Counted from the first letter of the stretch, positions 1 to 59,306 are shown. The stretch is DNA of 64,000 nucleotides from Bacteroidales bacterium UBA5219 (GCA_002412425.1 DHVB01000062.1:1815-65814), one strand, 5' to 3'. Translations and numbers: made by a program. Notes: generated by a model from the letters alone, not told the origin.

Positions 1-1
1 T

Positions 2-970
2 ATTGACGAGCCTATCCCTGTTGTTGTAACCACATCCAAATTATTGAGTACAGGCGTTGATGTTCCAACTTGTAAAATCATTGTGCTTTTCCGAATGGTC
101 AACTCTATGACCGAGTTTAAACAAATTGTTGGTAGAGGTACAAGAGTAAGAGAAGACAAGGAAAAACTATTTTTCACCATTCTTGACTATACAGGAAGTG
201 CAACAAGAAACTTTGCCGACCCTGATTTTGATGGTGAACCACCATTAATCACCGAAGATGAAATTGATGATGATGGAAACATAATTGACGGTGATGAATT
301 GGTGCCAGATGATGCCGACACAGGTGATGAAGATTGGGAAGATGAAGACAATGAAGATGATGAGCCACCAACAGGCGGTGAAACAGGTGGTGAACCAAGA
401 AGAAAATACTACATCAGCGAAGGCGAAGTAAGTATTGCAGCGGAGAGTGTTCAAATATTAGACGCGAATGGAAAACTTCGCACTATTCAATTTACACAAT
501 ACGCAAAGGAGCAGATCACTACTCTCTTCCCATCAATAAATGAGTTTAAATCAAAATGGAACAATCTTGAAGAACGTAAACACATTCTTGAAGAGCTTGA
601 AAATAATGGTGTATCAGTAGACCAACTAATGGAGATAACCAGAAACAAAGACGCTGACCCATTTGACTTACTCTGCTTTGTTGCTTTCGATTTGAAACCG
701 CTTACTCGTAAACAACGAGCAGATTTACTGAAAAAGAACAAACCTGACTTGTTTCAAGACCTAAGCGAGAAAGCAAAAGATGTTTTGAACCTTATTTTGG
801 AAAAATATGTGGAATATGGGCCAAATCAATTGAGACCTGATATTATTTCAGTTGACCCAATATCAGAAAAAGGGAACGCTTACGAAATCGTGAATGAATT
901 TGGCGGAATTGACCAATTCAAAAAAATAATAGAAGAAATACAAACCCTGCTTTATGCAGATGCAGCTTAA
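2..970 (+). CDS. hsdR: Type I restriction endonuclease R subunit (HsdR), C-terminal part; 5' end outside window
   Basis: The frame of the 44..970 ORF stays open to the window edge. It has helicase C-terminal motifs (TSKLLSTGVDVP, QIVGRGTRV), then an acidic linker and an EcoEI-type R C-terminal region. Its stop lies 9 nt before the hsdM start. Confidence 0.9.
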   Translation: MDEPIPVVVTTSKLLSTGVDVPTCKIIVLFRMVNSMTEFKQIVGRGTRVREDKEKLFFTILDYTGSATRNFADPDFDGEPPLITEDEIDDDGNIIDGDELVPDDADTGDEDWEDEDNEDDEPPTGGETGGEPRRKYYISEGEVSIAAESVQILDANGKLRTIQFTQYAKEQITTLFPSINEFKSKWNNLEERKHILEELENNGVSVDQLMEITRNKDADPFDLLCFVAFDLKPLTRKQRADLLKKNKPDLFQDLSEKAKDVLNLILEKYVEYGPNQLRPDIISVDPISEKGNAYEIVNEFGGIDQFKKIIEEIQTLLYADAA

Positions 971-979: not shown

Positions 980-3121
980 ATGGCAAAGACCAAAAAGACA
1001 AAATCAGTAAAACAAGAAACACCAGCTCAAAGGCTATCAGGTATTATCAAAAGTTGTCGCCAAATCATGCGAAAAGACAAAGGCATGAACGGAGATGCGG
1101 ACAGACTACCAATGTTGACTTGGATAATGTTCTTAAAGTTCTTGGATGACAATGAGCAAATGCAAGAAGTAAATGCACAGCTTGAAGGTAAGAAATATAA
1201 ACCTGCAATAGAATCCCCTTATAGATGGCGCGATTGGGCAAAAGATACCAATCTAACAGGTGACGACCTGCTTAATTTCATCAGTAATGAGAAAGTTACT
1301 CTCTCTGACGGTAAAGAAAGAACAGGTTTATTTTACTATTTAAGGAGCTTACAAAGCGAAAGTGGAACGGAACGCAAAGACGTCATTGCAACGGCATTTA
1401 AAGGAATTAGCAACCGCATGATAAATGGGTACTTGCTAAGAGATGTAGTAAATAAAATTGACGGCATTCATTTCACAAATAACGAAGAAATAAATACGCT
1501 TTCGCACTTGTACGAAAGCATCTTGAAGGAAATGAGAGATGCAAGCGGTGATGCAGGTGAATTTTATACACCAAGACCAGTGGTGCGTTTCATGGTTGAA
1601 ATGCTAGCCCCTAAAATTGGTGAAACTGTTTTAGACCCCGCTTCAGGTACAGGTGGGTTCTTAGTTGAAGCCTTTGACTATTTGAAAAAACAGGCTAAAA
1701 CCGTAGAACAGAGACAAACATTACAAAGGAATTCCATTGTTGGAGGTGAACCAAAGTCATTACCCTTTCTGCTTTGTCAAATGAACTTGCTTTTGCATGG
1801 TCTTGAGTATCCAAATATTGATAGCGGTAACAGCCTTCGGTTTCCATTAAAAGACATTGGCGATTCTGAACGTGTAGATGTTATTCTTACCAATCCACCA
1901 TTCGGGGGTGAAGAAGAGAGAGGGATTCTAAACAATTTCCCGAATGATAAGCGAACAGCAGAAACTGCCTTGCTCTTTTTGCAATTGATAATGCGAAAGT
2001 TGAAAAGGAAAAAACCAAATTCAGATGGTGGTCGAGCCGCAGTAGTTGTTCCAAACTCAACTTTGGCAGGAAACGGCATCACAGGCAGAATTTTAAAACA
2101 GCTTATTTCTGATTTCAACCTACATACCGTTGTTCGTCTTGGAGAAGGCGTTTTCGCACCATACACTGACATTCCTTCAAATTTAATTTTCTTCGATACA
2201 ACTAAAAAAACTGATACTGTTTGGTTTTATGAAGTACCAATTCCAAAGGGGAAAAAGAAATACAGTAAATCAAAACCACTTAAATCAGATGAACTAGAAA
2301 AAGTTAAAAAATGGTGGAACAAAAGAGAAGAAAGTGAGAACTCATGGAGTGTCAAGGTTGCCGAATTAGTTCAATCCGAAGATGAAAAAATTGACTTAGA
2401 CCTTAGGAATCCGAATAAAGTAGACCCTTATGAAAATTTGGATGCTAATCTTCTAATCACAAAAGTTAGAGAAGCCATCACGCAAAATCTTGCCTTAATT
2501 ACTCAAATACAAAATGAAATTAGTAATTCTTTGACTGTTAAAACTGTTAGCTTATCTACAGCAATAGAAGAAAGCACTGATTCTGTAGAAGTGAATCCCA
2601 CCGTAATGTATAATTTTGCAGGTGTTTACGGATTTGGGAAAGGACTTTTTAAGCGAGAACCACTTTCAGGTAGCAATACTTCATACAAATCATTTCACAG
2701 GCTACACAAAGATGAAATTGTCATTAGTAAAGTAAAGGGATGGGAAGGCGCTATTGCATTGATTACAGAGGAATTTGATGGATTGTATCTATCTTCTCAA
2801 TATCCGACTTTTAAGGCTAAAGAAGGAGTCAACATTAAATACATAGCTGAGTATTGCAAACACCCTAGAGTTTGGCAGGAACTGCTAGATAAATCAAAAG
2901 GCATAGGTGCAAGAAGAAATTCAATTTCAGTTGACACTTTTTTATCGTTGAAAATCCCGTTACCAGAGTTGGAAGAGCAAGACAAAATTGTAGATGCACT
3001 TGAGAAACTTTCAGAATTGAAGAGAAAGCAATCAGAGCTGAACAAATCACTTGAATTGCTCACGCCAGCAATTTTGGAAACAGCTTTCAATTCTAAACCA
3101 GTTGAAGAAGTAGAAGTATGA
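980..3121 (+). CDS. hsdM: Type I N6-adenine DNA methyltransferase (HsdM) fused to one HsdS-type target recognition domain
   Basis: HsdM N-terminal region (LPMLTWIMFLKFLDD), AdoMet motif DPASGTGGFL and catalytic motif NPPFGG. Residues ~540-713 look like one HsdS TRD plus the conserved helix (LPLPELEEQDKIVDALEKL). There is no stand-alone hsdS in the window. Confidence 0.85.
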   Translation: MAKTKKTKSVKQETPAQRLSGIIKSCRQIMRKDKGMNGDADRLPMLTWIMFLKFLDDNEQMQEVNAQLEGKKYKPAIESPYRWRDWAKDTNLTGDDLLNFISNEKVTLSDGKERTGLFYYLRSLQSESGTERKDVIATAFKGISNRMINGYLLRDVVNKIDGIHFTNNEEINTLSHLYESILKEMRDASGDAGEFYTPRPVVRFMVEMLAPKIGETVLDPASGTGGFLVEAFDYLKKQAKTVEQRQTLQRNSIVGGEPKSLPFLLCQMNLLLHGLEYPNIDSGNSLRFPLKDIGDSERVDVILTNPPFGGEEERGILNNFPNDKRTAETALLFLQLIMRKLKRKKPNSDGGRAAVVVPNSTLAGNGITGRILKQLISDFNLHTVVRLGEGVFAPYTDIPSNLIFFDTTKKTDTVWFYEVPIPKGKKKYSKSKPLKSDELEKVKKWWNKREESENSWSVKVAELVQSEDEKIDLDLRNPNKVDPYENLDANLLITKVREAITQNLALITQIQNEISNSLTVKTVSLSTAIEESTDSVEVNPTVMYNFAGVYGFGKGLFKREPLSGSNTSYKSFHRLHKDEIVISKVKGWEGAIALITEEFDGLYLSSQYPTFKAKEGVNIKYIAEYCKHPRVWQELLDKSKGIGARRNSISVDTFLSLKIPLPELEEQDKIVDALEKLSELKRKQSELNKSLELLTPAILETAFNSKPVEEVEV

Positions 3122-3678
3122 AACCCAAACCATTAACAGCAATTCTATTATTCATAAGTGCTTACTCGCCTTTGTTTTTGATATTGGCAGTAAAGGATTT
3201 TGATTTCTATTGCAGTTACAGTTTTGGGCATCCAGTAGCCATTTCAATCCTTCTTGGCTTATCAGCATTGAGTGTAATACTGCTATTCGTAACTATAGGC
3301 TCAATTAAAAGAGGAAATATGCCTGTTACTGTGAAAGCAGTTAAAAACCGTTCGGTTGATTTAATTAACTACACAATCCCTTACATCGTTTCATTTTTTG
3401 GTTTTGACCTTGCGAAGGTTGAAGACATTATTTCGCTTTCAATATTCCTTTTGTTGCTTTTGCTTCTCACAATAAAAAGCAAGTCTGTATTCATGAACCC
3501 AATCCTACTTTTAGCAGGCTATAATCTTTACGATTTGGAATATGAATATGATGGCAAGCCAACTTCAACAATCGTAATTAGCAAGCATGAAATGAAAGCA
3601 GGAGAAAGATTTTACATAAGGAGCTTAACCCGCTTCTTGTACTTTGTAACAGAAAAAGAGACCACAAATGCCCAATAG
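3118..3678 (+). CDS. Small ~4-TM membrane protein, KwaA-like (candidate Kiwa component)
   Basis: ATGA start/stop overlap with hsdM. Four hydrophobic helices by eye (res ~6-25, 38-60, 82-96, 103-119) plus a soluble tail. The CDS call is strong; the Kiwa assignment rests only on architecture and gene pairing. Confidence 0.6.
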   Translation: MKPKPLTAILLFISAYSPLFLILAVKDFDFYCSYSFGHPVAISILLGLSALSVILLFVTIGSIKRGNMPVTVKAVKNRSVDLINYTIPYIVSFFGFDLAKVEDIISLSIFLLLLLLLTIKSKSVFMNPILLLAGYNLYDLEYEYDGKPTSTIVISKHEMKAGERFYIRSLTRFLYFVTEKETTNAQ

Positions 3679-4624
3679 ACAAAGACAAACGCTAAGACAA
3701 TTAAAAGACCTTGATTTAAGAGGGGCTAATGTGACATTGGCTGTTGTAAAAGAATACAAAAGAGACAGAGTTTCTCAGTACACGGTCAAATACGTTCCAA
3801 TTGACCAAAGACTTGAAACCAGACTAAGAAATATCGTTGTAAACCACATCAACAATTCAAACACAGTTGAAGAATACACCTATGATTGTCCTGAACCCGA
3901 AGAAGACCAGGTAAGGGCTATCAGTTATGAAGAAACTGACTTTTACAGAATATTTGAGCAGCTCGAAGATTTAAACCCAGAGGAAGATATTATTGAGGAT
4001 GTAGAAGAACTTGTAAAGTCCAAAGCCTACATGATAATTCTTCGGAATGCAGAAGGCATTCAAGTTGTCGGTTTCAAAACCCTGCCTGAGAATTGGAGAA
4101 TGAAACGAAACAAAGGTTTGATTCCCCTTTTGTACAACGAAAACCGATTTGAAGATTTAGAACAGGACAACGTTTTCAGTATTTCAAGCATTGTCGACCT
4201 TTTCTATTTTAATGAGTTTCTGTTCATTCTTTCCAAGAAAGATTTTGAAAGAGGCTTGAACTTCCGTGAAGGCATGATTAACAATGCGAACGAACTATAT
4301 CAGGAAGTTACTCAGTTGAACATTTTCGTGAATATGGAAATTCTGACTGACCGAGTTGGAAACAATCAGCGCTACTTAAGGAAAATTGCGACAATCAGAA
4401 ATTTAGGCCATTATAGAAATCCTGTTTACTTGCAGAGATTACAGCAACTAATTGTAACTAAAGGATGGAACATCCAATTTGAAGAAGAACAAATTGTAAT
4501 AACGGACGAGACACTTGACGATATTTTGACTTTGCTTCAAAACAAACGGCTTCATTCAGAATTAACCGAAGAAGATTTTGATGTGGAAAGTACAAAACCA
4601 GTAAACCCCAACGCAAACTTGTAA
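3668..4624 (+). CDS. 318-aa soluble protein, KwaB/DUF4868-like (candidate Kiwa component)
   Basis: 11-nt overlap with the upstream membrane-protein gene. Its size (~315 aa) and its pairing with a small multi-TM protein fit Kiwa. The central region VFSISSIVDLFYFNEFLFILSKKDFERGLNF resembles my recollection of DUF4868; this is not verified by a search. Confidence 0.55.
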   Translation: MPNRQRQTLRQLKDLDLRGANVTLAVVKEYKRDRVSQYTVKYVPIDQRLETRLRNIVVNHINNSNTVEEYTYDCPEPEEDQVRAISYEETDFYRIFEQLEDLNPEEDIIEDVEELVKSKAYMIILRNAEGIQVVGFKTLPENWRMKRNKGLIPLLYNENRFEDLEQDNVFSISSIVDLFYFNEFLFILSKKDFERGLNFREGMINNANELYQEVTQLNIFVNMEILTDRVGNNQRYLRKIATIRNLGHYRNPVYLQRLQQLIVTKGWNIQFEEEQIVITDETLDDILTLLQNKRLHSELTEEDFDVESTKPVNPNANL

Positions 4625-4779
4625 GCACATTTGCAGGTCACACAAAGCCACCGCTCGACCAAAACCTGTAAAAGAGCTTCCAAGTCCCTGCCCGATAAAA
4701 GAGAAATTTTAAGAATGCCCCAATACAAGGAAGATATGAGAATTACCATTGAAATATCGAGAGATGAAGAAGCACGATT

Positions 4780-4913
4780 GCCTAACAGCGTGTATGTGGC
4801 AATAGCGGGTGAAGAGGTAAATCGAAGGTCTATGCTTCTAAGAAACTTTGTGCAAAACGGACAGGAAAGTGCTTCTAATCCGCTACTGCACATACACGCA
4901 AAACGTTACCAGC
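4780..4913 (+). repeat. attC-like imperfect palindrome 0
   Basis: Left box GCCTAAC (4780-4786, fits RYYYAAC). The stem 4788-4808 pairs with 4880-4899 (20 bp, one bulged G4799, one A4802/C4886 mismatch). The loop is ~71 nt. Right box G4905|TTACCAGC. Confidence 0.65.
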
Positions 4914-4933
4914 AATTAGAGTGAAAACAAATT

Positions 4934-8666: not shown

Positions 8667-9257
8667 ATGAAAAAAACCGCATTTACATATTTTATTTTGT
8701 TTCTTATTTCTCTAAATGTCCTTGCTCAAAAAGTAGATAAAAATAATTTCAGTTTAGGTCTTTTTATTGGCGAGGGAACAGGAGTCTTAACAGATTTTAG
8801 TATTAATGATAAATTTGGAATTGAGTGGAATATATCCTATAATGAAATGTTTTATAAATACAGATATACAAACAAATATTCAGATTTTATAAATCAAAAA
8901 TATAACAATATATATAGCTCATCTCTTTTATTAAATTACAGAAACAAATTTATGAATAATAACAAATTAGATTATCATTTTGCTATCGGCAGCCAAATGA
9001 GGATTATTACTGATTTTTATCAGGGAATACCTGTTTTGACACCTCCAAATACTATAATTATTGTTGACCCAACAACAAAAAATAAAATAGATATAGGTAT
9101 TAGTTTATTGATGGGTACTGAATATTGTTTGACTGAAAACATTTCCGTATTCTTTGACTTAGGGACATATATTGAAATAACAGATATTTTTTTATGGTCA
9201 AATTTTCAATTTAGAACAGGATTAATGTATCGTATAAATTATAAAAAGAAAGAATAA
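8667..9257 (+). CDS. Putative outer-membrane beta-barrel protein
   Basis: Signal peptide MKKTAFTYFILFLISLNVLAQ. Alternating aromatic/polar pattern, 196 aa. No recognisable enzyme motifs. Confidence 0.6.
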   Translation: MKKTAFTYFILFLISLNVLAQKVDKNNFSLGLFIGEGTGVLTDFSINDKFGIEWNISYNEMFYKYRYTNKYSDFINQKYNNIYSSSLLLNYRNKFMNNNKLDYHFAIGSQMRIITDFYQGIPVLTPPNTIIIVDPTTKNKIDIGISLLMGTEYCLTENISVFFDLGTYIEITDIFLWSNFQFRTGLMYRINYKKKE

Positions 9258-9260
9258 ACA

Positions 9261-9397
9261 GCCGAGAACAGCAGCTACACGCAAGTGGGGGTTCAGTGCT
9301 TCTATGAAAGTGAAGTGCCAAATCAAAGTTCTGTACTTTTAATGGAGTTCAGTGCTAAAAATCCCCACCTGCGTGTAGCTGCCAACCGTTAGCCAAC
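9261..9397 (+). repeat. attC-like imperfect palindrome 2
   Basis: Left box GCCGAGAAC (9261-9269) begins 4 nt after the stop at 9257. The stem 9271-9290 pairs with 9363-9382 (19/20, with an A9284/C9369 mismatch). The loop is ~72 nt. Right box G9388|TTAGCCAAC. Confidence 0.65.
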
Positions 9398-13138: not shown

Positions 13139-13144
13139 ATATAC

Positions 13145-13280
13145 GTTGGATAACAATGTATAAACACAATAGCGGGCAAATTGCAAATTTTAATATCCGA
13201 ACTTTGCTTTAATATCTTGCAAGATTTGAATGTTGGTGTTTCAAAGTCCGCTACTGTGTTTATACTAAATCGTTATGGAG
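13145..13280 (+). repeat. attC-like imperfect palindrome 3 (last in array)
   Basis: Left box GTTGGATAAC (13145-13154) begins 7 nt after the stop at 13138. The stem 13158-13175 pairs with 13248-13265 (17/18, with an A13169/C13254 mismatch). The loop is ~70 nt. Right box G13272|TTATGGAG. Confidence 0.65.
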
Positions 13281-20271: not shown

Positions 20272-20334
20272 TAAAGTTTTTAAAGTTCGTAAAGTTGGAT
20301 TGGATTAAATCATAATTCTAATCTACATTTTAAC

Positions 20335-20403
20335 ATCGGGTGTTGAGCGATTCCAATATCGGGTGTTGAGCGATTCCAATATCGGGTGTTGAGCGAAGTC
20401 GAA
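20335..20403. repeat. 23-bp tandem repeat x3 (ATCGGGTGTTGAGCGATTCCAAT)
   Basis: Units are 20335-20357 and 20358-20380 (identical) and 20381-20403 (diverged at its 3' end). The last unit forms a hairpin, GGTGTT..AACACC (20385-20407). Confidence 0.85.
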
Positions 20404-20443
20404 ACACCGAAATTCTTTCAACTTTTAACTTTTAACTGCGTTG

Positions 20444-46806: not shown

Positions 46807-49800
46807 TTAAATTTCAGTTTCTTCAAATTTTTCTTCTTCAATACTTATTTCATCTTGATTTAAGTATTGTTCTGCAATCATCTTAGATGTAACTCTAATA
46901 TTTTCAAATTCTTTTTGTCCGGTTCCTCCAGGAATTTTATGTCCAACAATAACGTTTTCTTTCAATCCTTCAAGTTCGTCAACTTTTGCACGTATTGCTG
47001 CTTCGTTTAGAACTTTAGTTGTTTCTTGGAAAGAAGCTGCTGACATAAAGCTATTTGTTTGAAGAGCTGCTCTAGTAATTCCTTGTAACACTTGACTAGA
47101 AGTAGCTGGCAAAGCATCTCTAACTTCAACTAGTTTCATGTCTTTACGTTTTAATATTGAGTTTTCATCTCTCAACCTACGATAAGAAATCATTTGTCCT
47201 TTAGAGAAATTTGTAGAGTCTCCTGGGTCAACAACAATTTTCTTATCGAAAATAGCGTCATTTTCTTCTCTAAACTCCCATTTGTCAACTAGTTGTTTTT
47301 CAAGGAATTGAGTATCACCAGGTTCAACAACTTCAACTTTTCTCATCATTTGGCGTACAATCACTTCAAAGTGTTTGTCATTAATTTTCACACCTTGTAA
47401 ACGATATACGTCTTGGATTTCATTCACTAAATATTCTTGAACTTCGGTAGGACCTTTAATTGCTAAAATATCGCTAGGAGTAATTGCTCCATCGATAAGT
47501 GGTGTACCAGCTTTAACATAGTCGTTTGGTTGAACTAAAATTTGTTTTGAAAGAGGTACTAAATACTTATTAACCTTACCGTCTTTTGCGGTAATTTCAA
47601 TTTCTCTATTTCCTCTTTTAATTTTACCAAAAGATACTTCCCCGTCAATTTCTGAAACTACAGCAGGATTAGATGGATTTCTAGCCTCAAACAACTCTGT
47701 TACTCTAGGCAAACCACCGGTAATATCTCCACCTTTTCCGACAATTCTAGGCATTTTAATCAAGATATCTCCAGATTCAACTTTTTCGTTTTCTTCAATT
47801 TGCAAACGAGCACCTACAGGTAAATTATAAGTTGCTAATACTTCGTTATTTTTATCAACAATTTTGGCAACTGGAATTTTAGTTTTATCCTTAGTTTCGA
47901 TTATAATTTTTTCTGTTAAACCAGTTTGAATTATCAATTCATCTTTATAGTTGACACCTTCGATAACGTCTTCAAACACTAGTTTTCCCGAAACTTCACT
48001 AACAATAACGATATTATATAAGTCCCAATCACAGATTCTATCTCCCTTTTTAAAACTATTACCTTGCTTAAAGTACAATTTAGAACCATAAGGTATAGGT
48101 TTGTTTACTAAAGGTATTTTTGTATTTGGGTCTAAAATTTTCATTTCAGCCATACGAGTTACTACAATATCAACAAGAGAACCATCTTTTTCTTTATGTT
48201 CAACTGTTCTTAACTCATCAATTTCTAGGATACCGTCATATTTTGCGTCTATAAATGATTCTCCCGCAATTTTACCAGCAACCCCTCCCATGTGGAATGT
48301 ACGTAGAGTTAACTGAGTACCAGGCTCTCCGATAGATTGTGCTGCAATAACTCCTACAGCTTCTCCTTTTTGAACCATTCTGCGAGTTGCCAAATTACGT
48401 CCATAACATTTTGCACAAACTCCTTTTCGAGATTCACAAGTTAATACCGAACGAATTTCAACTTTTTCAATTGGAGATTCGTCAATAATTTTTGCAATTC
48501 TTTCAGTAATTTCTTCACCTGCAGCAACTATTAATTCTTCAGTTTGTGGATGGTAAATATCATGAACACTAGTACGACCTAAGATACGTTCATAAAGAGA
48601 TTCAATTACTTCTTCATCATTTTTCTTTAGTTCAACAGCTACCAATCCTCTTAATGTTCCACAATCTTCTTCGGTAATAATAACGTCTTGTGCAACGTCA
48701 ACTAATCTTCTTGTTAAATATCCCGCATCGGCAGTTTTTAAAGCTGTATCTGCAAGACCTTTACGAGCACCGTGAGTAGAAACGAAATATTCAATAATTG
48801 ACAAACCTTCTTTAAAGTTTGCTAAAATTGGGTTTTCAATAATTTCGCTAGTTGCAACACCTGATTTTTGTGGTTTTGCCATAAGTCCCCTCATTCCGCA
48901 CAATTGGCTAATTTGCTCTTTAGAACCTCTAGCTCCAGAGTCAAGCATCATATAAACTGCATTAAAGCCTTGGTCATCAGTAGAAAGCTTTTTCATAACA
49001 TCGATAGATAACCTAGCGTTTATATTAGTCCATACGTCAATTACTTGATTGTAGCGTTCAGTATCGGTAATAAAACCATTTTCATAGTTAAACATGATTT
49101 CATCAACCTCAGCATATCCTTCTTGAATTAATTCTTGTTTTGTTTCAGGAATAATAACGTCATTCAAATTAAACGACAATCCACCTTTAAACGCATGAGA
49201 ATATCCTAAGTCTTTTATATCATCTAGGAATCTTGAAGTTACGTCTGTTCCAAACCTTCCTACAAGGTTTCCAATAATATCGCGTAATGATTTTTTTGTA
49301 AGAATTTCATTAATATATCCGTATTCTTTAGGAACGATTTGGTTAAATAATACTCTACCTGTAGTAGTTTCTATCATTCTTGTAACCGCTTCTCCTTTTT
49401 CGTTTACATCGTCAACTCTTACTTTTATATTAGCATGAAGATCTAATTGTCCTTCGTTATTAGCGATAATAACTTCTTCAGGAGAATAATATGTATATCC
49501 TTCTCCTTTTACTCCTTTTCTACCTTTAGTTAGATAATACAAACCTAAAACCATGTCTTGAGAAGGAACAGTAATAGGAGCTCCATTAGCTGGATTTAGA
49601 ATATTATGAGAAGCCAACATTAAAACTTGTGCTTCAAGAATAGCTGCGTTACCGAGTGGTAAATGCACTGCCATTTGGTCACCGTCGAAGTCAGCATTAA
49701 ATGCTGTACAAACTAATGGGTGCAATTGAATTGCTTTTCCTTCGATAAGTTTTGGTTGAAATGCCTGAATACCTAAGCGGTGCAAAGTAGGAGCACGGTT

Positions 49801-51105
49801 TAACAAAACTGGATGACCTTTTAAAACGTTTTCAAGTATATCCCAAATAACTGGATCTTTTCTTTCAACAATTTTTTTAGCAGATTTAACAGTTTTTACT
49901 ATTCCGCGTTCAGTTAACTTACGAATAATAAAAGGTTTGTATAATTCTGCTGCCATTTCTTTAGGTAATCCACATTCGTGCATTTTTAAATCTGGACCAA
50001 CAACAATTACCGAACGAGCAGAAAAGTCAACGCGTTTACCTAATAAGTTTTGACGGAAACGACCTTGTTTTCCTTTTAAGCTATCACTAAGAGATTTTAA
50101 AGGTCTATTTGCTTTAGTTTTTACAGCATTTGATTTTCTTGAGTTATCAAAAAGAGAATCTACTGCTTCTTGTAACATACGTTTTTCGTTACGTAATATT
50201 ACTTCTGGAGCTTTAATTTCGATTAAACGTTTAAGCCTATTATTTCTGATAATAACTCTACGATACAAATCATTTAGGTCGGAAGTTGCAAAACGTCCAC
50301 CATCTAGTGGTACTAATGGTCTTAACTCTGGTGGAATAACTGGGATAACATTGATTATCATCCACTCAGGTTTATTTCTATCAGCAGAAAGTCTAAATGC
50401 TTCTACAACATTCAAACGTTTTAGCGCCTCGCTTTTTCTTTGTTGTGAAGTTTCATTACTTGCTTTATCTCTCAAAGAATATGACAATTGATCTAAATCA
50501 ATTCTTTTAAGCAAATCTTGGATAGCTTCAGCACCCATTTTTGCGATAAATTTATTTGGGTCTGTATCTTCTAAAAGTTGATTTTCGCGTGGCAGGCTAT
50601 CTAAAATTTCCAAATATTCATCTTCTGTTAAAAAGTCTAATTCTTGAATACCATCAATAGCTTTTACTCCTGGCTGCACAACGATATAACGTTCGTAATA
50701 AATTACAGAATCGAGTTTTTTACTTGGTAGTCCGAGCAAATAACCTATTTTGTTTGGCAAAGTCTTAAAGTACCAAATATGCGCTACTGGAACTTCAAGT
50801 TTAATATGTCCAATTCTTTCGCGTCTTACTTTTTTCTCGGTAACTTCAACACCACATCTATCACAAACTATTCCTTTGTATCTAATTCTTTTGTATTTAC
50901 CGCAATGACATTCATAATCTTTTACTGGACCAAATATTCTTTCGCAAAACAAACCATCTCTTTCTGGTTTATAAGTACGATAGTTTACAGTTTCTGGTTT
51001 AGTTACTTCGCCACTAGACATCTCCTGAATTTCTTCAGAAGAAGCAAGACTAATAGTAATTTTTGAAAATTTTGTTTTTATTTTTTTATCTTTTCTAAAA
51101 GCCAT
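46807..51105 (-). CDS. rpoC: DNA-directed RNA polymerase beta' subunit
   Basis: 1432 aa. Zinc-binding [23 protein letters not shown] and catalytic [12 protein letters not shown]. Confidence 0.98.
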
Positions 51106-51131
51106 ATTTTTATCAGCTATTAAATTATTTT

Positions 51132-54100
51132 TTAATCAAGATCTACTCTCAAACACAAACCTCTTAACTCATGTACCAACACATTTAGAGATTCTGGGAT
51201 TCCTGGTTCTGGCATTTGTTCGCCTTTAACTATTGCTTCATAAGTTTTTGCACGACCAACCACATCATCAGACTTAACAGTTAGAATTTCTTGAAGTATA
51301 TTAGCAGCACCAAATGCTTCGAGTGCCCAAACCTCCATTTCTCCAAAACGTTGACCTCCAAATTGTGCTTTACCACCAAGAGGTTGTTGTGTAATTAATG
51401 AATAAGGACCAATAGAACGCGCGTGCATTTTATCTTCAACCATGTGTCTTAATTTTAACATATAAATTACTCCAACCGTTGCTGGCTGGTCAAATCTATC
51501 GCCTGTTCCACCGTCATACAAATAAGTGCTTCCGTACTCTGGTAAACCAGCTTTTTTAGTATATTCATTAATTTGGTCTATATTAGCACCATCAAAAATT
51601 GGAGTTGAAAATCTACAACCCAAAACACTACCTGCCCAACCTAAAATTGTTTCATAAATTTGTCCTAAGTTCATACGAGAAGGCACGCCCAAAGGATTCA
51701 AAACAATATCAACAGGTGTACCATCTTCTAAGAAAGGCATATCTTCTTGACGTACAATTTTTGCCAAGATACCTTTATTACCATGACGACCAGCAAATTT
51801 ATCACCAACTTTAACAACCCATTTACTTGCAATATAAACTTTTGCCAATTGAATTATTCCAGCAGGAAGTTCGTCTCCAATAGTAATTTCGAGTTTTTTA
51901 CGACGATTATCACCATCTATTTTCTTTTGTTCAACCATATAATTAAACAAAAGTTTTGAAATAGTTTCGTTTCTATTTTTGTCGGTTGTCCAACGTCCAG
52001 GACTTACATTAATAAAATCTAATTCTGCTAATAATTTTTGAGTAAATTTTGTTCCTTTTGGAATTAAATCATTGTTAAAATTATCTTTAACACCTTGTGA
52101 TGTTTTTCCATTCACAAGAGTGAAAAGTTTTTCAATCAATATACTTTTTAGAGCAGCAGATTCTTCTGCATGTTTTTTATCAAGATTTTCAACTAAAATT
52201 TTATCTTGATTTCTAAGTTTACGATCTTTAATTGTTTTTGAGAACAATTTTTTATCAATCACAACTCCACTAGTTGATGGCGAAGCTTTTAATGAAGCAT
52301 CTTTTACATCACCAGCTTTTTCACCAAAAATAGCTCTCAAAAGTTTTTCTTCTGGAGAAGGATCAGATTCTCCTTTTGGAGTAATTTTACCTATAATTAC
52401 ATCTCCAGGTTTCACATATGCACCTACCCTAATAATTCCATTCTCATCTAAATCTTTAGTTGCAGTTTCGCTTACATTAGGAATATCTGAAGTTAATTCT
52501 TCTAGTCCTCGTTTTGTTTCGCGTACTTCTAATTGATAATCTGCAATATGGATAGATGTAAAATAATCTTCTTTAACTATATTTTCATTTAATACAATAG
52601 CGTCTTCAAAGTTGTAACCTTTCCAAGGCATAAAAGCAACTTTAAGATTACGTCCCAAAGCTAATTCTCCTTTTTCTGTTCCATAACCTTCGGTTAATAA
52701 ATCGCCTTTTTTAACTTTATCGCCTTTTTTAACAAGTGGACGTAGGTTTACACAAGTATTTTGGTTAGTTTTTTGAAATTTTGGAATATTATAAGTAACA
52801 AAATTATCTGTAAAACTTATAAATTCTTCTTCTTCGGTTCTATCGTACTTAACTATAATTTTTTCTGCGTCCACATATTCAACCACACCGTTATTTTCAG
52901 CAGTAATTAAAATTCGTGAATCGCGAGCAACCATTTCTTCTATACCTGTTCCTACAATTGGAGCTTCTGCTCTTAACAAAGGCACAGCTTGACGCATCAT
53001 GTTAGATCCCATTAAAGCACGGTTAGCATCGTCATGCTCTAAAAATGGAATTAAAGAAGCTGCTATTGACGCTATTTGATTTGGTGCAACGTCCATTAAC
53101 TCAATTTGTTGAGGATCTGTTACTACAAAATCACCTTCATCTCTTGATTTTACTCTTGATGACAAGAAGTTTCCGTCATCATCAATCAGAGCATTAGCTT
53201 GAGCAATAACTTTTTCTTCTTCTTCTGCACTTAAATAAACTATATCATCGAAATATACTTTTCCATCAACAACTTTTCGATAAGGAGTTTCAATAAATCC
53301 GAGTTTATTTATTTTTGCATAAACACAAAGTGAAGAAATCAAACCAATATTTGGACCTTCTGGAGTTTCGATAGGACACAAACGTCCATAGTGAGTATAG
53401 TGAACGTCTCTAACCTCAAAACCGGCTCTTTCGCGAGAAAGTCCACCTGGACCTAATGCTGAAAGTCGTCTTTTATGAGTAATTTCTGCTAATGGATTTA
53501 TTTGATCCATAAATTGAGACAATTGATTTGTCCCAAAAAATGAATTTATTACAGACGATAATGTTTTTGAGTTGATAAGATCAATTGGATGGAAAATCTC
53601 ATTGTCTCTAACATTCATTCTTTCGCGAATAGTACGAGCCATACGAGCTAAACCAACACCAAATTGATTGGCTAATTGTTCTCCAACTGTTCTTACTCTA
53701 CGGTTACTTAAGTGGTCGATATCATCAACATCTGCCTTTGAGTTTACTAACTCAATTAAATATTTTATTATTTCAATTATATCTTCTTTAGTAAGAATGC
53801 GGATTTCGTCAGGAATATTCAAGTTTAATTTCTTGTTCATTCTAAAACGACCAACATCTCCTAAGTCGTAACGTTTGTCGGAAAAGAATAATTTATCAAT
53901 AACATCACGTGCAGTAGCTTCGTCTGGTGGTTCGCTACTACGTAACTGACGATAAATACTTACAACAGCTTCTTTTTCCGAGTTACATGGGTCTTTTTGT
54001 AAAGTGTTGTAAATTATTGCATAATCAGAAACTTTTTGATTTTCTTTATGTAAAAGAATAGTTTTAGTTCCTGATTCTAAAATCAAATCTATATGCTGTG

Positions 54101-54932
54101 GTTCTAGGACTATTTCTCTATCAATAACAACTTCGTTACGTTCTATTGATACTACTTCAGCTGTATCTTCATCAACGAAATCTTCTATCCACGTTTTTAA
54201 AACTCTTGCTACTAATCTTCGACCGACAACTCTTTTAAGAGCAGTTTTAGACACTTTTATTTCATCGGCTAAGTCAAAAATTTCTAAAATATCTTTATCA
54301 CTTTCAAAACCGATAGCTCGAAGTAAAGTTGTAACAGGTAATTTCTTTTTTCTATCAATATATGCGTACATTACACTATTGATATCTGTTGCAAACTCAA
54401 TCCAAGAACCTTTAAATGGGATAATACGAGCTGAATATAATTTAGTTCCATTAGTATGAATAGATTGACTAAAGAATACGCCTGGCGACCTATGTAGTTG
54501 CGAAACGATTACTCTTTCTGCTCCATTTATCACAAAAGTTCCACTTGGTGTCATGTATGGCACTGCACCTAGCCAAACATCTTGAACCGAAGTTTCAAAA
54601 TCTTCATGTTCTGTATCAGTACAATACAGTTTTAGCTTTGCTTTTAAAGGCACGCTATAAGTTAATCCACGTTCAACACATTCTTGTATGCTGTATCGTG
54701 GTGCATCTAAAGTATAATCTAAAAATTCTAATACAAAATTATTTCTAGTATCGTTTATTGGAAAATTATCCATAAACACTTGATACAAACCTTCAGATTT
54801 TCTTTGTTCTGCGGTGGAGTTTAGTTGAAAAAACTCCTCAAATGACTTTATTTGTATTTCTAAAAAATCAGGATACTCTAACTGATTTTTTGTTGTAGAA
54901 AAATTAATTCTTTGTTTCTTATTACTAATCAT
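51132..54932 (-). CDS. rpoB: DNA-directed RNA polymerase beta subunit
   Basis: 1266 aa with conserved beta motifs ([21 protein letters not shown]). Confidence 0.98.
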
Positions 54933-54974
54933 TGTTTTTTATTATTTAAAAGAACCTAAACATTAACAACGAAA

Positions 54975-55002
54975 GGTTTAAAGCCCTTTTGGGCTTTAAA
55001 CC
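54975..55002 (-). terminator. Strong hairpin between rplL and rpoB (attenuator/partial terminator)
   Basis: 12-bp perfect stem GGTTTAAAGCCC (54975-54986) / GGGCTTTAAACC (54991-55002) with a 4-nt loop. On the minus strand it is followed by TTTC. Confidence 0.7.
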
Positions 55003-55027
55003 TATAATTTAATACAACAAAAGTTGT

Positions 55028-55408
55028 TTATTTAAGTTCGACTTCTGCACCAGCCTCTTCTAATTGAGTTTTAAGTGCATTTGCCTCGTCTTTTGGAACT
55101 CCTTCTTTAATTGGTTTTGGAGCTTCATCAACAAGGGCTTTAGCTTCTTTAAGACCTAGTCCTGTTAATTCTTTTACTAATTTAACAATTTGTAATTTTT
55201 GAGCGCCTGCGCTTTTCAAAATAACGTCAAACTCTGTTTTTTCAGCTTCAGCAACTTCACCAGCGCCACCTGCAACTGGTCCTGCTACTGCAACTGCTGC
55301 AGCTGCTGGCTCAATACCATATTCTTCTTTTAGGATGTTTGCTAATTCATTTACATCCTTAACAGTAAGGTTAACTAATTCTTCTGCTAACTTCTTAAGA
55401 TCTGCCAT
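55028..55408 (-). CDS. rplL: 50S ribosomal protein L7/L12
   Basis: Ala-rich hinge and a C-terminal [20 protein letters not shown] motif. Confidence 0.96.
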
Positions 55409-55444
55409 TTTAATTTGTTTTTAATTTGTTTTAAACTAAATTTT

Positions 55445-55963
55445 CTATTCTCTTTCTGATAAGGTTTTTACTAAACCTCCTAATAAATTTTTACCTGATT
55501 CAAGTTGTCCAAGAACTGTTTTTATTGGTGATTGTAACAATAAAATAATATCTCCAATAAGTTCTTCTTTAGATTTAAGACTTGCTAAAGCGCTTAACTG
55601 GTCTGCACCAATATAAAACGATTCTTCAGCATAAGCTCCTTTGAAAAGCGGTTTATCACTTTTTTTATTAAGTTCTTGAATTAATTTACCAGGAACATTT
55701 GCAACATTAGTAAACATTACTGTAGTGTTTTCTTTTAAAACACCATATAGTTCCTGAAAATCACGACCGCTTCGTTCTAAAGCTTGCTTAAAAAAAGTAT
55801 TCTTAACAACAATCAGTTCTATGCCTTTTTCGAAACATTTTTTTCTTAATTCAAAAGTATCTGCCGCATTTAACCCCGAAATATCTGTTAGATAAAAGTG
55901 GTTATATTCGTTGATAGTATCTTTCAAACTTTCGATAAGTGCATTTTTATCTTCTCGTTTCAT
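55445..55963 (-). CDS. rplJ: 50S ribosomal protein L10
   Basis: The start is placed at MKREDKNALIE (fourth codon of the listed ORF). Sits between rplA and rplL. Confidence 0.9.
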   Translation of the reverse strand: MKREDKNALIESLKDTINEYNHFYLTDISGLNAADTFELRKKCFEKGIELIVVKNTFFKQALERSGRDFQELYGVLKENTTVMFTNVANVPGKLIQELNKKSDKPLFKGAYAEESFYIGADQLSALASLKSKEELIGDIILLLQSPIKTVLGQLESGKNLLGGLVKTLSERE

Positions 55964-55983
55964 AACTGGCAATTTGTTAATTA

Positions 55984-56676
55984 CTAATTAATTGACTTAA
56001 GATTGATTTCAATACCTGGACTCATTGTGCTAGACAAGTAGATACTTCTTACATAAGTTCCTTTTGCTGCTGTTGGTTTAAGTTTTATAATTGTCTGAAT
56101 TATTTCAGTTGCGTTATCAACTATTTTTTCAGGACTAAATGAAACTTTACCAATACCTGCATGGATTATACCGTATTTATCCACTTTAAAATCAATCTTT
56201 CCTTTTTTCACATCTTCAACTGCTTTGCCGATCTCCATAGTTACTGTACCAGCTTTTGGGTTTGGCATTAAACCTCTAGGGCCTAAGATTCTACCTAGTT
56301 TTCCTAGTTTTGCCATTACCTGAGGCATAGTAATTATAATATCGATATCTGTCCAGCCTCCTGAAAGTTGTTCAATATAATTATCTAATCCAACATAATC
56401 AGCACCAGCATCTTTTGCTTCTTGCTCTTTATCTGGAGTACATAATACCAAAACTCGAACTTCTTTACCAGTTCCGTGAGGTAATGTTGTAATTCCTCTA
56501 ACCATTTGATTGGCTTTACGAGGGTCAACACCTAAACGAACATCAATATCAACAGAAGCATCAAACTTTGTAAAAGTAATCTCTTTTACAAGTTTTGCAG
56601 CCTCTTGAAGATCGTACTTCTTTCCTTTTTCAAGTTTAGCTAAAGCGTTTTTTCTATTTTTGCTAATTTTTGCCAT
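55984..56676 (-). CDS. rplA: 50S ribosomal protein L1
   Basis: Typical L1 sequence ([24 protein letters not shown]). 230 aa. Confidence 0.96.
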
Positions 56677-56693
56677 TTCAAAAAGTACTTTAA

Positions 56694-57137
56694 TTATTTT
56701 TTAATTGGTGATTGTCCTTTTACAGAAATCCCCATACTTCTAGCTGTGCCTGCAACCATACTCATTGCTGAATCTAATGTGAAAGCATTTAAGTCAACCA
56801 TTTTAGCTTCTGCAATAGCTTTAACTTGATCCCAAGTTACTGAACCAACTTTATTTCTATTTGGTTCTGCAGAGCCTTTGTTAACTTTTGATTGCTCTAA
56901 CAATTGAATCGCAACCGGTGGAGTCTTTACGATAAAATCAAAAGATTTATCACTATAATAAGTGATAATCACAGGTAAAACTTTACCTACTTGATCTTGG
57001 GTTCTACCATTAAATTGTTTGCAGAACTCCATGATATTTAAACCTTTTGATCCTAAAGCAGGACCCAAGGGTGGAGATGGATTTGCGGCACCACCTTTAA
57101 CTTGTAGTTTAATAAAACCACTAATTTGTTTTGCCAT
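56694..57137 (-). CDS. rplK: 50S ribosomal protein L11
   Basis: [20 protein letters not shown] is the canonical L11 N-terminus. Confidence 0.96.
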
Positions 57138-57160
57138 AAACTTTTTTTCTTAATAAAAGA

Positions 57161-57715: not shown

Positions 57716-57723
57716 AATTAGGT

Positions 57724-57918
57724 TTAATAAAATATGCCGTAAATAACTTCGAGAAGATTTTTAAAACTATAATCCATCACGAAGATAATTAGGGCAAATA
57801 TTAAGGAAGCAACCATAACCACAACTGCACTGCCCTGAAGTTCTGACCATTTGGGCCAAGTAACTTTATGAACTAGTTCGTTGTAAGTATCTTTGAAATA
57901 TTCTTTAATTTTTCTCAT
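57724..57918 (-). CDS. secE: Preprotein translocase subunit SecE
   Basis: 64 aa. ELVHKVTWPKWSEL followed by a single TM. Conserved position. Confidence 0.9.
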   Translation of the reverse strand: MRKIKEYFKDTYNELVHKVTWPKWSELQGSAVVVMVASLIFALIIFVMDYSFKNLLEVIYGIFY

Positions 57919-57934
57919 CTTAATATCTCGTTTG

Positions 57935-58007: not shown

Positions 58008-58057
58008 AGAAAGAAGAAGCAAGGAAAACCTCGCTTCATCTATCATATTGGTTTTAA

Positions 58058-59245: not shown

Positions 59246-59306
59246 GGCTTAAAAATATTAAATATTAATAATTAAACTTTTTTTAATTTATACTTACAAA
59301 AAATTG

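What the first reader, a model, noticed from the sequence alone, without database searches (positions are those of the whole stretch)
3118..4624. Two-gene module (4-TM protein plus 318-aa soluble protein) translationally coupled to the 3' end of a type I R-M operon: Kiwa-like or a new partner system
The 186-aa ORF overlaps the hsdM stop (ATGA at 3118-3121). The 318-aa ORF overlaps the 186-aa ORF by 11 nt. All four genes therefore look like one transcription/translation unit.

A small multi-TM protein followed by a ~315-aa soluble protein is the published Kiwa architecture (KwaA plus the DUF4868 protein KwaB). I cannot confirm the domain by eye.

If it is Kiwa, its direct fusion into an R-M operon that lacks a stand-alone hsdS is an unusual arrangement. 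If it is not Kiwa, this is an uncharacterised membrane-sensor/effector pair in a defence context.
Basis: partly seen in the sequence, partly recalled or inferred. Interest (0 to 1): 0.65.

Follow-up and report, generated by a model that had tools for sequence, protein, structure and literature searches.

The report
Kiwa pair riding a restriction cassette
The two genes are an ordinary Kiwa anti-phage system (membrane sensor KwaA plus DNA-binding KwaB) joined to the end of a type I restriction-modification operon; the less ordinary part is that all four genes appear to travel as one 6.6-kb cassette in an integron-like array of a Bacteroidota chromosome.

Summary
hsdM-S (980..3121), the 186-aa ORF (3118..3678) and the 318-aa ORF (3668..4624) overlap by 4 and 11 nt.

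The pair is Kiwa:
- PADLOC matches full length: KwaA E=3.6e-55, KwaB E=9.5e-116.
- Pfam KwaB scores 114 bits.
- A confident AlphaFold model of the 318-aa protein matches only solved KwaB structures.

The missing hsdS is explained. HsdM carries one fused specificity domain, a common natural M-S fusion.

The R-M plus Kiwa operon is conserved down to about 70% protein identity, always with a tight junction. Both modules also occur apart. Kiwa stands alone in many relatives, and sister R-M operons carry Menshen in the same slot. The best reading is therefore two independent defence layers, co-expressed and moved together.

An unexpected result concerns the context. The four-gene block has sharp ends in several different flanks. 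It ends in a ~130-nt hairpin element with invariant AAC...GTT and strongly covarying stems. It sits in an array next to a Xer-like tyrosine recombinase that lacks the integron-integrase extra domain. Homologous recombinase-plus-array platforms elsewhere in Bacteroidota carry shuffled antibiotic-resistance cassettes.

Kiwa itself is known. The cassette platform may be under-described.

The parts
1..970 (+). hsdR, 3' part. The gene starts about 1.44 kb upstream of the window. It encodes a type IB (EcoAI/FtnUII-family) restriction subunit.
   Evidence: Pfam EcoEI_R_C E=4.3e-28 and PADLOC REase_I E=2.4e-62 on the in-window part. The 99%-identical full-length copy L001:358-2775 scores 972 bits on NCBIfam NF046051 (cutoff 550). 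Identical contig L012 shows an 802-aa gene.
980..3121 (+). hsdM fused to a half hsdS (one target-recognition domain); 713 aa
   Evidence: Pfam N6_Mtase E=2.3e-61, HsdM_N, and Methylase_S at residues 562-685. PADLOC MTase_I E=2.2e-173 and Specificity_I E=1.2e-23. Roughly half of the 120 best database relatives have the same ~704-739-aa fused length.
3118..3678 (+). kwaA, membrane component of Kiwa (186 aa). Its start overlaps the hsdM-S stop (ATGA).
   Evidence: PADLOC KwaA PDLC00215 E=3.6e-55, residues 1-180 on profile 1-194/196. phmmer hit to solved KwaA chains 9o0i_G and 9mrg_A, E=3e-6 to 5e-6. The identical gene on other contigs carries the precomputed Pfam label PF28043 KwaA. Hydropathy.
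3668..4624 (+). kwaB, DUF4868 DNA-binding effector of Kiwa (318 aa). It overlaps kwaA by 11 nt.
   Evidence: PADLOC KwaB PDLC00235 E=9.5e-116, full length. Pfam PF16162 scores 114 bits against a cutoff of 26.3. A family profile hits solved KwaB 9mrx_K at E=2.2e-11. The AF2 model has pLDDT 93.8. Foldseek top six are all KwaB, E down to 8.6e-12, TM 0.61-0.68.
4715..4924 (+). 69-aa ORF of doubtful reality. Its 3' two-thirds is the hairpin element.
   Evidence: No hit in NCBIfam or PADLOC. It overlaps the structured element 4770-4911.
4770..4911 (+). attC-like folded element that closes the cassette. Left core is GCCTAAC (4780-4786). Stem arms are 4788-4809 and 4880-4899. Right core is GTTACCA (4905-4911).
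   Evidence: Pattern scan. Single-strand DNA fold z=-3.8. nhmmer E=4.6e-36. On 18 distinct copies, 15 of 17 stem pairs show compensatory changes: 93.5% paired against 60.4% in shuffles, 0/500 shuffles as high.
4905..4907 (+). GTT at which the conserved block ends (cassette 3' boundary). The matching 5' boundary GTTAGGC lies outside the window, at about -1739.
   Evidence: The window, L001, L016/L017 and L007 are alike up to ...CACGCAAA(A/C)CGTTA and unrelated after it. L012, L015 and L001 are unrelated before GTTAGGCAAC (L002 before its own GTTGGGCAAC) and alike after it.
9253..9395 (+). second copy of the attC-like element, same strand
   Evidence: nhmmer E=8.9e-29. Stem GCAGCTACACGC / GCGTGTAGCTGC.
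13139..13279 (+). third copy of the attC-like element, same strand. No further copy occurs in the remaining 50 kb.
   Evidence: nhmmer E=4.6e-26. Alignments.

Best explanation
The module is a Kiwa defence system of a Bacteroidota subfamily. It is expressed as the distal half of a four-gene operon whose proximal half is a type IB restriction-modification system (HsdR plus an HsdM-half-HsdS fusion).

How it most likely works:
- Transcription enters from upstream of hsdR. Ribosomes finishing hsdM-S restart at the overlapping kwaA start, and those finishing kwaA restart at kwaB. This step is inferred from the overlaps.
- The R-M enzyme, probably (M-S)2R2 reading a symmetric bipartite site, methylates host DNA and cuts unmodified incoming DNA. 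This is inferred from family knowledge.
- By analogy with E. coli Kiwa, KwaA sits in the membrane and holds KwaB. Membrane disturbance at phage attachment or DNA entry releases KwaB activity. KwaB then binds the entering DNA and blocks replication and late transcription. This comes from PMC11785009 and was not tested here.

The two layers are mechanistically independent. They are kept in one transcription unit so that they are expressed and moved together. The whole block is a 6,644-bp cassette bounded by GTT cores and closed by an attC-like hairpin. It lies in an integron-like array beside a Xer-like tyrosine recombinase.
For: Identity as Kiwa:
- (details under parts).
- Basic DNA-contact residues of E. 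coli KwaB (R142, K187, R233) correspond to K146, K191, R238 here.

Operon:
- Overlaps of 4 and 11 nt.
- The tight junction is kept in orthologous blocks down to 70-78% protein identity, including one with a separate hsdS.
- No Bacteroidetes -7 motif (TAnnTTTG) occurs in the 300 nt before kwaA. Five of nine other Kiwa loci checked (eight stand-alone, plus L007) have one in their upstream 300 nt.

Independence of the two modules:
- Kiwa pairs at 83-97% protein identity occur without this R-M. DNA similarity begins exactly at the kwaA ATG.
- R-M operons with 75%-identical HsdM-S carry Menshen NsnA/B/C in the same slot.

Cassette:
- Sharp shared junctions occur in at least four left and four right contexts.
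- The cassette's first bases GTTAGGCAA are the exact complement of the left core of its own 3' element. In L002 both change together (GTTGGGC with GCCCAAC). In L046 the ends of the 9.5-kb R-M/Kiwa cassette match 15/16.
- The hairpin stems covary.
- Recombinase homologues in Flavobacteriales ICEs, a Cyclobacteriaceae chromosome and a Chryseobacterium plasmid are each followed by same-strand arrays of the element.
- In the Flavobacteriales ICE arrays (L029-L032) the same cassettes occur in different order, always joined at ...G|TT.
Against: - There is no expression, methylation or phage-challenge data.
- The NCBIfam KwaA and KwaB equivalog models are hit below their cutoffs (62.7 against 100; 53.1 against 200).
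- Identity to solved KwaB is only 12-13%.
- Three of six E. coli DNA-contact positions differ: N134, R167, D169 correspond to T138, S171, S173.
- KwaA could not be modelled (single-sequence pLDDT 46), and its third TM segment is weakly hydrophobic.
- An internal promoter inside hsdM-S cannot be excluded with a consensus search.
- The recombinase lacks the IntI-specific domain: 12 residues where VchIntIA has 54.
- The window's second cassette does not show 5'-end/own-arm complementarity (5/13).
- No circular intermediate was observed.
Confidence: 0.8

Rival explanations
1. Kiwa and the R-M enzyme are functional partners rather than co-passengers. For example, KwaB could hold incoming DNA at the membrane for the R-M motor. 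Or KwaB could soak up DNA-mimic anti-restriction proteins so that the type I enzyme stays active, as Kiwa and RecBCD share the inhibitor Gam in E. coli.
For: - The R-M plus Kiwa operon is retained across lineages from 100% to about 70% protein identity, with the junction always within 0 to -4 nt.
- Published Kiwa work shows that a DNA mimic (Gam) binds KwaB, and that binding to one system spares the other (PMC11785009).
Against: - Near-identical Kiwa pairs work in other contexts with no R-M upstream. About 16 uncoupled contexts were seen against about 7 coupled lineages.
- The same R-M scaffold carries Menshen instead.
- Nothing in either protein is specific to the coupled form. DNA similarity to stand-alone pairs starts precisely at the kwaA ATG.
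Confidence: 0.12
2. The overlaps are incidental. kwaAB is transcribed from its own promoter inside the 3' end of hsdM-S, and the two systems are merely neighbours in a defence island.
For: - Defence systems commonly sit side by side. Relatives of this Kiwa lie next to other type I R-M genes, CBASS, PDC-M22 and a methylase/Z1 cluster without any coupling.
- The promoter scan tool does not model Bacteroidota promoters.
Against: - There is no intergenic space at all.
- The 300 nt upstream has no TAnnTTTG motif.
- The junction stays tight even where its sequence has changed: ATGA, TAATG, and TAG followed directly by ATG.
Confidence: 0.12
3. The ~130-nt hairpins are not recombination sites. They would be REP-like or terminator elements at operon ends, and the block spread by homologous recombination or another mobile element.
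For: - The adjacent recombinase is Xer-like and lacks the domain that defines integron integrases.
- Cassettes of 4-9 kb with several genes are far larger than classical integron cassettes.
- One cassette fails the end-complementarity test.
Against: - Junctions fall on the same GTT in every comparison.
- Identical cassettes occupy different array positions behind an invariant recombinase-proximal site.
- Each cassette's 5' end covaries with its own 3' element.
- Copies cluster only next to the recombinase. There are three in the first 13 kb of the window and none in the other 50 kb.
Confidence: 0.15
4. The pair is a new, non-Kiwa membrane sensor/effector system.
For: - phmmer of the 318-aa protein alone finds no solved KwaB.
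- The NCBIfam equivalog cutoffs are not reached.
Against: Full-length PADLOC KwaA and KwaB matches, Pfam KwaB above threshold, a profile hit to solved KwaB, and a fold match only to KwaB.
Confidence: 0.02

Closest known systems
Kiwa (KwaA/KwaB) of Escherichia coli (Zhang, Todeschini et al.; PMC11785009; PDB 9mrx, 9mrg, 9nyu, 9mtn)
   Same: - Two genes in the order kwaA then kwaB.
- A ~190-aa multi-pass membrane protein and a ~315-aa DUF4868 protein.
- KwaB fold match over the whole length (TM 0.61-0.68).
- Three basic DNA-contact positions kept.
- Frequent carriage on mobile elements.
   Different: - Only 12-13% identity to the solved KwaB.
- Below the NCBIfam equivalog cutoffs.
- Three of six DNA-contact residues differ.
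- Here the pair has no leader of its own and is translationally joined to an R-M operon.
- The host is Bacteroidota, where the RecBCD/Gam interplay described for E. coli was not examined.
Type I R-M loci that carry extra defence genes, and the 'Type IMS' M-S fusion concept (Roberts et al. 2012; PMC3510504). PrrC in the EcoprrI locus is cited from my own knowledge.
   Same: - An accessory defence module lies inside or at the end of an hsd operon.
- HsdM fused to a specificity domain, with a separate HsdR, is exactly the architecture for which the name Type IMS was proposed, including the single-TRD form.
   Different: - The cargo is Kiwa (or Menshen in sister operons), placed after the last hsd gene and not between hsdS and hsdR.
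- There is no evidence that the R-M enzyme regulates the cargo, as EcoprrI regulates PrrC.
Integrons and their defence cassettes (IntI, attI, attC; Darracq et al. 2024 bioRxiv 10.1101/2024.07.02.601686; Ghaly et al. PMC8618304 and PMC9668308)
   Same: - A tyrosine recombinase lies next to a conserved insertion site.
- A same-strand array of cassettes follows, each closed by an imperfect palindrome in which only AAC...GTT is invariant and the stems covary.
- Junctions lie at G|TT.
- Each cassette's 5' end is complementary to its own site.
- Cargo is defence and antibiotic-resistance genes, and cassette order is shuffled.
   Different: - The recombinase lacks the IntI-specific additional domain and is closest to XerA (E=1e-43).
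- It is co-oriented with the array.
- Cassettes here are multi-gene and 4-9.5 kb. Published integron defence cassettes are small, and loci of BREX or CRISPR-Cas length are reported absent, with small type II and IV restriction systems prevailing.
- Complementarity extends beyond the 7-nt core.
Menshen (NsnA/B/C)
   Same: It occupies the identical position after the orthologous hsdR/hsdM-S pair in L026-L028 (PADLOC E=3e-129, 3e-94, 7.5e-85).
   Different: Its proteins are unrelated to Kiwa. A short gap (13-59 nt) replaces the overlap.

Membership tests
Kiwa | KwaA: small integral membrane protein with four TM helices | tested here: met
   PADLOC KwaA E=3.6e-55, full length. Hit to solved KwaA E=3e-6. 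Hydropathy gives three strong segments and one weak one. The exact TM count is not proven, because the single-sequence model was too poor.
Kiwa | KwaB with a DUF4868 domain | tested here: met
   Pfam PF16162 scores 114 bits against a cutoff of 26.3. PADLOC KwaB E=9.5e-116.
Kiwa | KwaB three-dimensional fold | tested here: met
   AF2 model pLDDT 93.8 and pTM 0.88. Foldseek top six are all KwaB, and the next hit has E=0.1.
Kiwa | Adjacent co-oriented kwaA-kwaB gene pair | tested here: met
   11-nt overlap. The pair recurs in every related locus with enough sequence; L011 holds only a weak partial KwaB match.
Kiwa | DNA-contacting residues of KwaB (E. coli N134, R142, R167, D169, K187, R233) | tested here: inconclusive
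   K146, K191 and R238 are kept as basic residues. T138, S171 and S173 differ.
Kiwa | NCBIfam equivalog thresholds (NF041622, NF041623) | tested here: not met
   62.7 bits against 100, and 53.1 bits against 200. These models represent the E. coli-type branch, so this marks a divergent subfamily rather than non-membership.
Kiwa | KwaA tetramer-KwaB dimer supercomplex; protection against phage and conjugation | not testable with these tools
   Needs multimer modelling and experiments.
Type I R-M, family IB (EcoAI-like) | HsdR of the EcoAI/FtnUII family | tested here: met
   NF046051 scores 972 bits (cutoff 550) on the 99%-identical full-length copy. The in-window part scores 294.7 bits over model positions 480-767.
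Type I R-M, family IB (EcoAI-like) | HsdM methyltransferase and an HsdS specificity determinant | tested here: met
   N6_Mtase and HsdM_N plus one Methylase_S domain in one polypeptide. The unfused hsdM plus hsdS form is seen in L046.
Integron | Integrase with the IntI-specific additional domain around patch III | tested here: not met
   Against VchIntIA (2a3v) the alignment splits, with 12 query residues opposite 54. TIGR02249 scores 195 bits against a cutoff of 265. The definition comes from PMC9668308.
Integron | attC sites: structure-conserved imperfect palindromes with RYYYAAC...GTTRRRY | tested here: met
   Elements of about 125-135 nt with invariant AAC/GTT. 15 of 17 stem pairs are compensatory. 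IntegronFinder's own attC model could not be run.
Integron | attI next to the integrase; cassettes joined at G|TT; cassette order variable | tested here: met
   A conserved ...TATAAA(C/T)(A/G)A|GTT site lies 70-180 nt after the recombinase gene in four lineages. Identical cassettes occur at different positions. The crossover can only be placed within GTT.
Integron | Pc promoter that drives promoterless cassettes | tested here: inconclusive
   One TATTTTTG (-7-type) motif lies between the recombinase and the cassette start (L012 1972). None occurs in the 300-nt cassette leader. This is a consensus match only.

The most novel reading that the evidence does not exclude
The R-M plus Kiwa block is a giant (6.6 to 9.5 kb) multi-gene cassette of a Bacteroidota-wide integron-like platform. 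The platform's recombinase is Xer-like and lacks the IntI domain. It also assembles the tet(X)/ermF/aadS/OXA/sul resistance arrays of Flavobacteriales, and it has not been described as a cassette system.
Probability: 0.4. Interest if true: 0.8.

Novelty: new member of a known kind. Interest (0 to 1): 0.4.

Why it matters
The two genes themselves add little. They are one more divergent Kiwa, and one more case of defence systems stacked on a restriction operon.

The context would matter more. If the hairpin-bounded blocks are true cassettes, then:
- Bacteroidota have their own cassette-capture platform, which classical integron searches miss because they require the IntI domain.
- That platform moves whole multi-gene defence operons, a size class reported absent from integrons.
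- The same platform shuffles clinically relevant resistance genes in Chryseobacterium- and Elizabethkingia-type elements.

The locus also offers a natural, compact test bed for whether a type I enzyme and Kiwa act additively or synergistically.

Tried and rejected
- phmmer of KwaB alone against PDB sequences found nothing relevant. A family profile was needed.
- The sigma-70 promoter and terminator scan is uninformative for Bacteroidota and was at chance level.
- Rfam gave only tRNAs at gathering thresholds, and nothing on the hairpin elements at permissive thresholds.
- The 416-aa protein upstream of kwaA in L007 and the 69-aa ORF after kwaB hit nothing in NCBIfam or PADLOC; the 416-aa protein also hit nothing in Pfam.
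The single-sequence model was too poor to search with (pLDDT 46).
- The closest recombinase relative (L055) diverges right after the gene and gave no alternative first cassette.
- My first automated end-complementarity script mis-paired elements where intermediate copies fell below threshold. Only the clean adjacent pairs are used.
- Window 20330-20430 looked like a weak fourth element but is a different short tandem repeat.
- Six literature searches found no description of a Xer-like/attC-like cassette system in Bacteroidota. Absence from that library is not proof of novelty.


Full report
**1. Observation**

The ORF table and the raw sequence confirm every coordinate in the finding.
- The 713-aa ORF is 980..3121 and ends in TGA at 3119-3121.
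- The 186-aa ORF starts at ATG 3118-3120, giving ATGA. It ends at 3678.
- The 318-aa ORF starts at 3668, an 11-nt overlap, and ends at 4624.
- hsdR stops at 970, 9 nt before the hsdM start.

The window opens inside hsdR. Contig L012 is 100% identical over the 9 kb of the window compared and supplies the missing 3.8 kb upstream.

**2. Identity of the pair**

PADLOC profiles match both proteins end to end: KwaA PDLC00215 at E=3.6e-55 and KwaB PDLC00235 at E=9.5e-116. Pfam KwaB (PF16162) scores 114 bits against a cutoff of 26.3.

KwaA aligns to the solved KwaA chains 9o0i_G and 9mrg_A (E=3e-6 to 5e-6). KwaB alone does not reach a solved structure. A profile of 88 diverse relatives hits KwaB 9mrx_K at E=2.2e-11.

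An AlphaFold model built on that alignment is confident (pLDDT 93.8). Its only significant PDB matches are six KwaB chains (E=8.6e-12 to 1.5e-9; TM 0.61-0.68; 12-13% identity). The next hit has E=0.1.

Mapping the six DNA-contact residues mutated in E. coli KwaB (PMC11785009) gives the following:
- Kept as basic residues: K146, K191, R238.
- Different: T138, S171, S173.

The NCBIfam equivalogs are hit below cutoff. This is therefore a divergent Kiwa branch that PADLOC already models. NCBI already names its relatives KwaB-like.

Hydropathy supports three clear membrane segments and one weaker one.

**3. The R-M half**

HsdR belongs to the EcoAI/FtnUII (type IB) family. The 713-aa protein is HsdM with one Methylase_S domain at its C-terminus. 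Roughly half of its 120 best database relatives share the fused length. The rest are ~520-540-aa HsdM proteins that match only the first 72%.

Roberts et al. proposed the name Type IMS for exactly this architecture, including the single-TRD form (PMC3510504). The same paper notes that half-S subunits with one TRD dimerise and read symmetric sites. The operon therefore does not lack specificity.

**4. How tightly R-M and Kiwa are linked**

| Lineage | Similarity to the window | Junction before kwaA |
|---|---|---|
| L001, L034, L035 | ~99% protein | -4 nt (L035 junction not measured) |
| L002, L036, L037 | 95-98% protein | -4 nt |
| L038 | 89-93% protein | -4 nt, different upstream sequence |
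| L024, L025 | 72-73% nt | -1 nt (TAATG) |
| L046 (separate hsdM and full hsdS) | 70-79% protein | 0 nt |

Both halves also occur apart.
- Kiwa pairs of 83-97% protein identity occur without this R-M. DNA similarity to the window begins exactly at 3118 in eight of the nine such loci (L003-L009; within a few nt in L005 and L010).
- Their neighbours are other type I systems, CBASS, PDC-M22, a methylase/Z1 cluster, RhuM and mobile-element genes.
- R-M operons whose HsdM-S is 75% identical carry Menshen NsnA/B/C in the Kiwa position.

Kiwa is therefore interchangeable cargo in the 3' slot of this operon family. This favours co-expression and co-transfer over a dedicated partnership.

No -7-type Bacteroidetes promoter motif lies in the 300 nt before kwaA. 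Five of nine other Kiwa loci checked (eight stand-alone, plus L007) have one upstream.

**5. The block is one cassette**

Independent contigs share the block with sharp ends.
- Left end: unrelated sequence, then GTTAGGCAAC... at L012 2059, which is window -1739.
- Right end: ...CACGCAAA(A/C)CGTTA at window 4905-4908. After this point the window, L001, L016/L017 and L007 all differ.
- Left contexts: a recombinase-proximal site (L012, L016), the end of an RnlA-toxin/TPR block (L015) and others.

The last 132 nt form an imperfect palindrome:
- Left core GCCTAAC at 4780-4786.
- Stem arms GCGTGTATGTG... and ...CACATACACGC.
- Right core GTTA at 4905.
- DNA fold z=-3.8.

The cassette's first bases are the exact complement of that left core. 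In L002 both are changed together (GTTGGGC with GCCCAAC). In L046 the ends of a 9.5-kb cassette match 15 of 16. That cassette holds hsdR, hsdM, hsdS, kwaA, kwaB, PDC-S13 and a transposase.

A profile of the element finds two more same-strand copies in the window, at 9253-9395 and 13139-13279, and none in the other 50 kb. It also finds one directly after the kwaB of an Aequorivita locus. That locus has a 1.7-kb Kiwa-only cassette that starts GTTAGGC 44 nt before kwaA.

On 18 distinct copies:
- 15 of 17 stem pairs show compensatory changes.
- 93.5% of cells pair, against 60.4% in shuffles (0 of 500 as high).
- The covariation score is 0.788, against at most 0.145 for slid controls.

Rfam has no matching family.

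**6. The platform**

A 345-aa tyrosine recombinase lies 183 nt upstream of the cassette start in L012. An UpxY-like antiterminator precedes it.

The recombinase is closest to XerA (E=1e-43). It lacks the insertion that defines integron integrases: 12 residues where VchIntIA has 54. TIGR02249 is below cutoff.

Homologues at 61-72% identity are widespread in Bacteroidota. Four independent lineages were examined:
- Flavobacteriales ICEs (L029-L032).
- A Cyclobacteriaceae chromosome (L033).
- A Chryseobacterium plasmid (L058).
- The window lineage.

In each, the gene is followed by a conserved ...TATAAA(C/T)(A/G)A|GTT site and a same-strand array of the hairpin element.

In the ICEs the cargo is single resistance genes: rRNA methylase, metallo- and class D beta-lactamases, a tet(X)-type monooxygenase, a sul-type synthase, and acetyl- and adenylyl-transferases. 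The same cassettes appear in different order, always joined at ...G|TT.

This behaviour is integron-like, but a defining integron feature is not met.

What the literature search found:
- Integron-borne defence systems are reported to be small, and loci of BREX or CRISPR-Cas length absent (10.1101/2024.07.02.601686).
- That paper counts Bacteroidota among clades previously without integrons. Two other papers list the phylum as having some.
- A Chryseobacterium study notes only 'XerD' next to tetX, catB and aadS.
- I found no paper that describes this system. That is weak evidence of novelty.

**7. Verdict**

Its fusion to a type I operon is conserved but modular. It is best read as two independent layers packaged for joint expression and transfer.

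The more interesting result lies outside the finding's coordinates. The four genes form one cassette of an integron-like, Xer-like-recombinase platform.

The interest of the finding as stated is modest. The platform deserves its own follow-up.

Noticed in passing
window 4770-4911, 9253-9395, 13139-13279: Three same-strand copies of a ~140-nt hairpin element lie in the first 13 kb only. AAC...GTT is invariant and the stems covary. They divide the region into blocks of 6.6 kb (partly outside the window), 4.5 kb and 3.9 kb. The latter two encode S8 peptidases with a T9SS sorting domain, an ABC ATPase and unknown proteins.
   Followed up: yes
outside the window: L012:838-1875 and L012:291-812 (window coordinates about -2960..-1923 and -3507..-2986): A Xer-like tyrosine recombinase without the IntI-specific domain sits 183 nt upstream of the cassette start. 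An UpxY/NusG-like antiterminator precedes it. A TATTTTTG -7-type motif lies between the recombinase and the cassette.
   Followed up: partly
L029-L032 (Flavobacteriales ICE), L033 (Cyclobacteriaceae chromosome), L058 (Chryseobacterium plasmid NZ_CP041688.1): Homologous recombinases are followed by arrays of the same element. In the ICEs the cassettes are antibiotic-resistance genes (erm-type methylase, MBL, OXA-type, tet(X)-type, sul-type, aadS-type, hexapeptide acetyltransferase). Their order differs between genomes, and they are always joined at G|TT.
   Followed up: partly
window 980-3121: A natural HsdM-half-HsdS fusion ('Type IMS' with a single TRD). About half of the closest 120 database relatives are fused. 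The prediction is a symmetric bipartite recognition site.
   Followed up: partly
L026:8205-11379, L027, L028: Orthologous hsdR/hsdM-S operons carry Menshen (NsnA/B/C) in the position where the window has Kiwa. The 3' end of this R-M operon family therefore acts as a swappable defence slot.
   Followed up: yes
L046:932-10587: A 9.5-kb cassette holds unfused hsdR, hsdM and hsdS, then kwaA, kwaB, a Bro-N/PDC-S13 candidate defence gene and an rve transposase. Its two ends match 15/16. Neighbouring small cassettes encode Mrr_cat and GIY-YIG nuclease-domain proteins.
   Followed up: partly
L009:9407-11108: A compact 1.7-kb Kiwa-only cassette in an Aequorivita MAG starts GTTAGGC 44 nt before kwaA, behind an attI-like GGTTATAAACAA. 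No recombinase lies within 10 kb. A separate type I R-M with an AAA_14/DUF4143 gene follows.
   Followed up: partly
L007:300-1550: A 416-aa protein with no Pfam, NCBIfam or PADLOC hit ends 3 nt before a 97%-identical kwaA. This is a different, unknown upstream partner in the same cassette type.
   Followed up: partly
L015:95-3411: The cassette that precedes the R-M/Kiwa block in one contig encodes an RnlA-toxin-domain protein, an RNase HII-like protein and a TPR protein that matches a PADLOC TPR model.
   Followed up: no
window 4715-4924: A 69-aa ORF is called as a gene on several contigs, but most of it is made of the hairpin element. It has no family hits and is probably not a real gene.
   Followed up: partly
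window 20330-20430: A short tandem repeat (about three copies of CCAATATCGGGTGTTGAGCGATT) lies after the 215-aa ORF. It is unrelated to the hairpin element.
   Followed up: no
window 46807-59640: Two large minus-strand ORFs (1432 and 1266 aa), small ORFs, a 395-aa ORF and five tRNA genes (Trp, Thr, Gly, Tyr, Thr) look like the rpoBC/ribosomal-protein/tuf cluster. The window would then be chromosomal. This is judged from sizes and order only.
   Followed up: no
plasmid hits H7-H15 (Klebsiella, Aeromonas, Acinetobacter plasmids): Truncated relatives (query residues ~120-345, about 50% identity) of the recombinase occur on Proteobacterial plasmids. One is annotated TnpF. They may be remnants that travelled with Bacteroidota resistance genes.
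   Followed up: no
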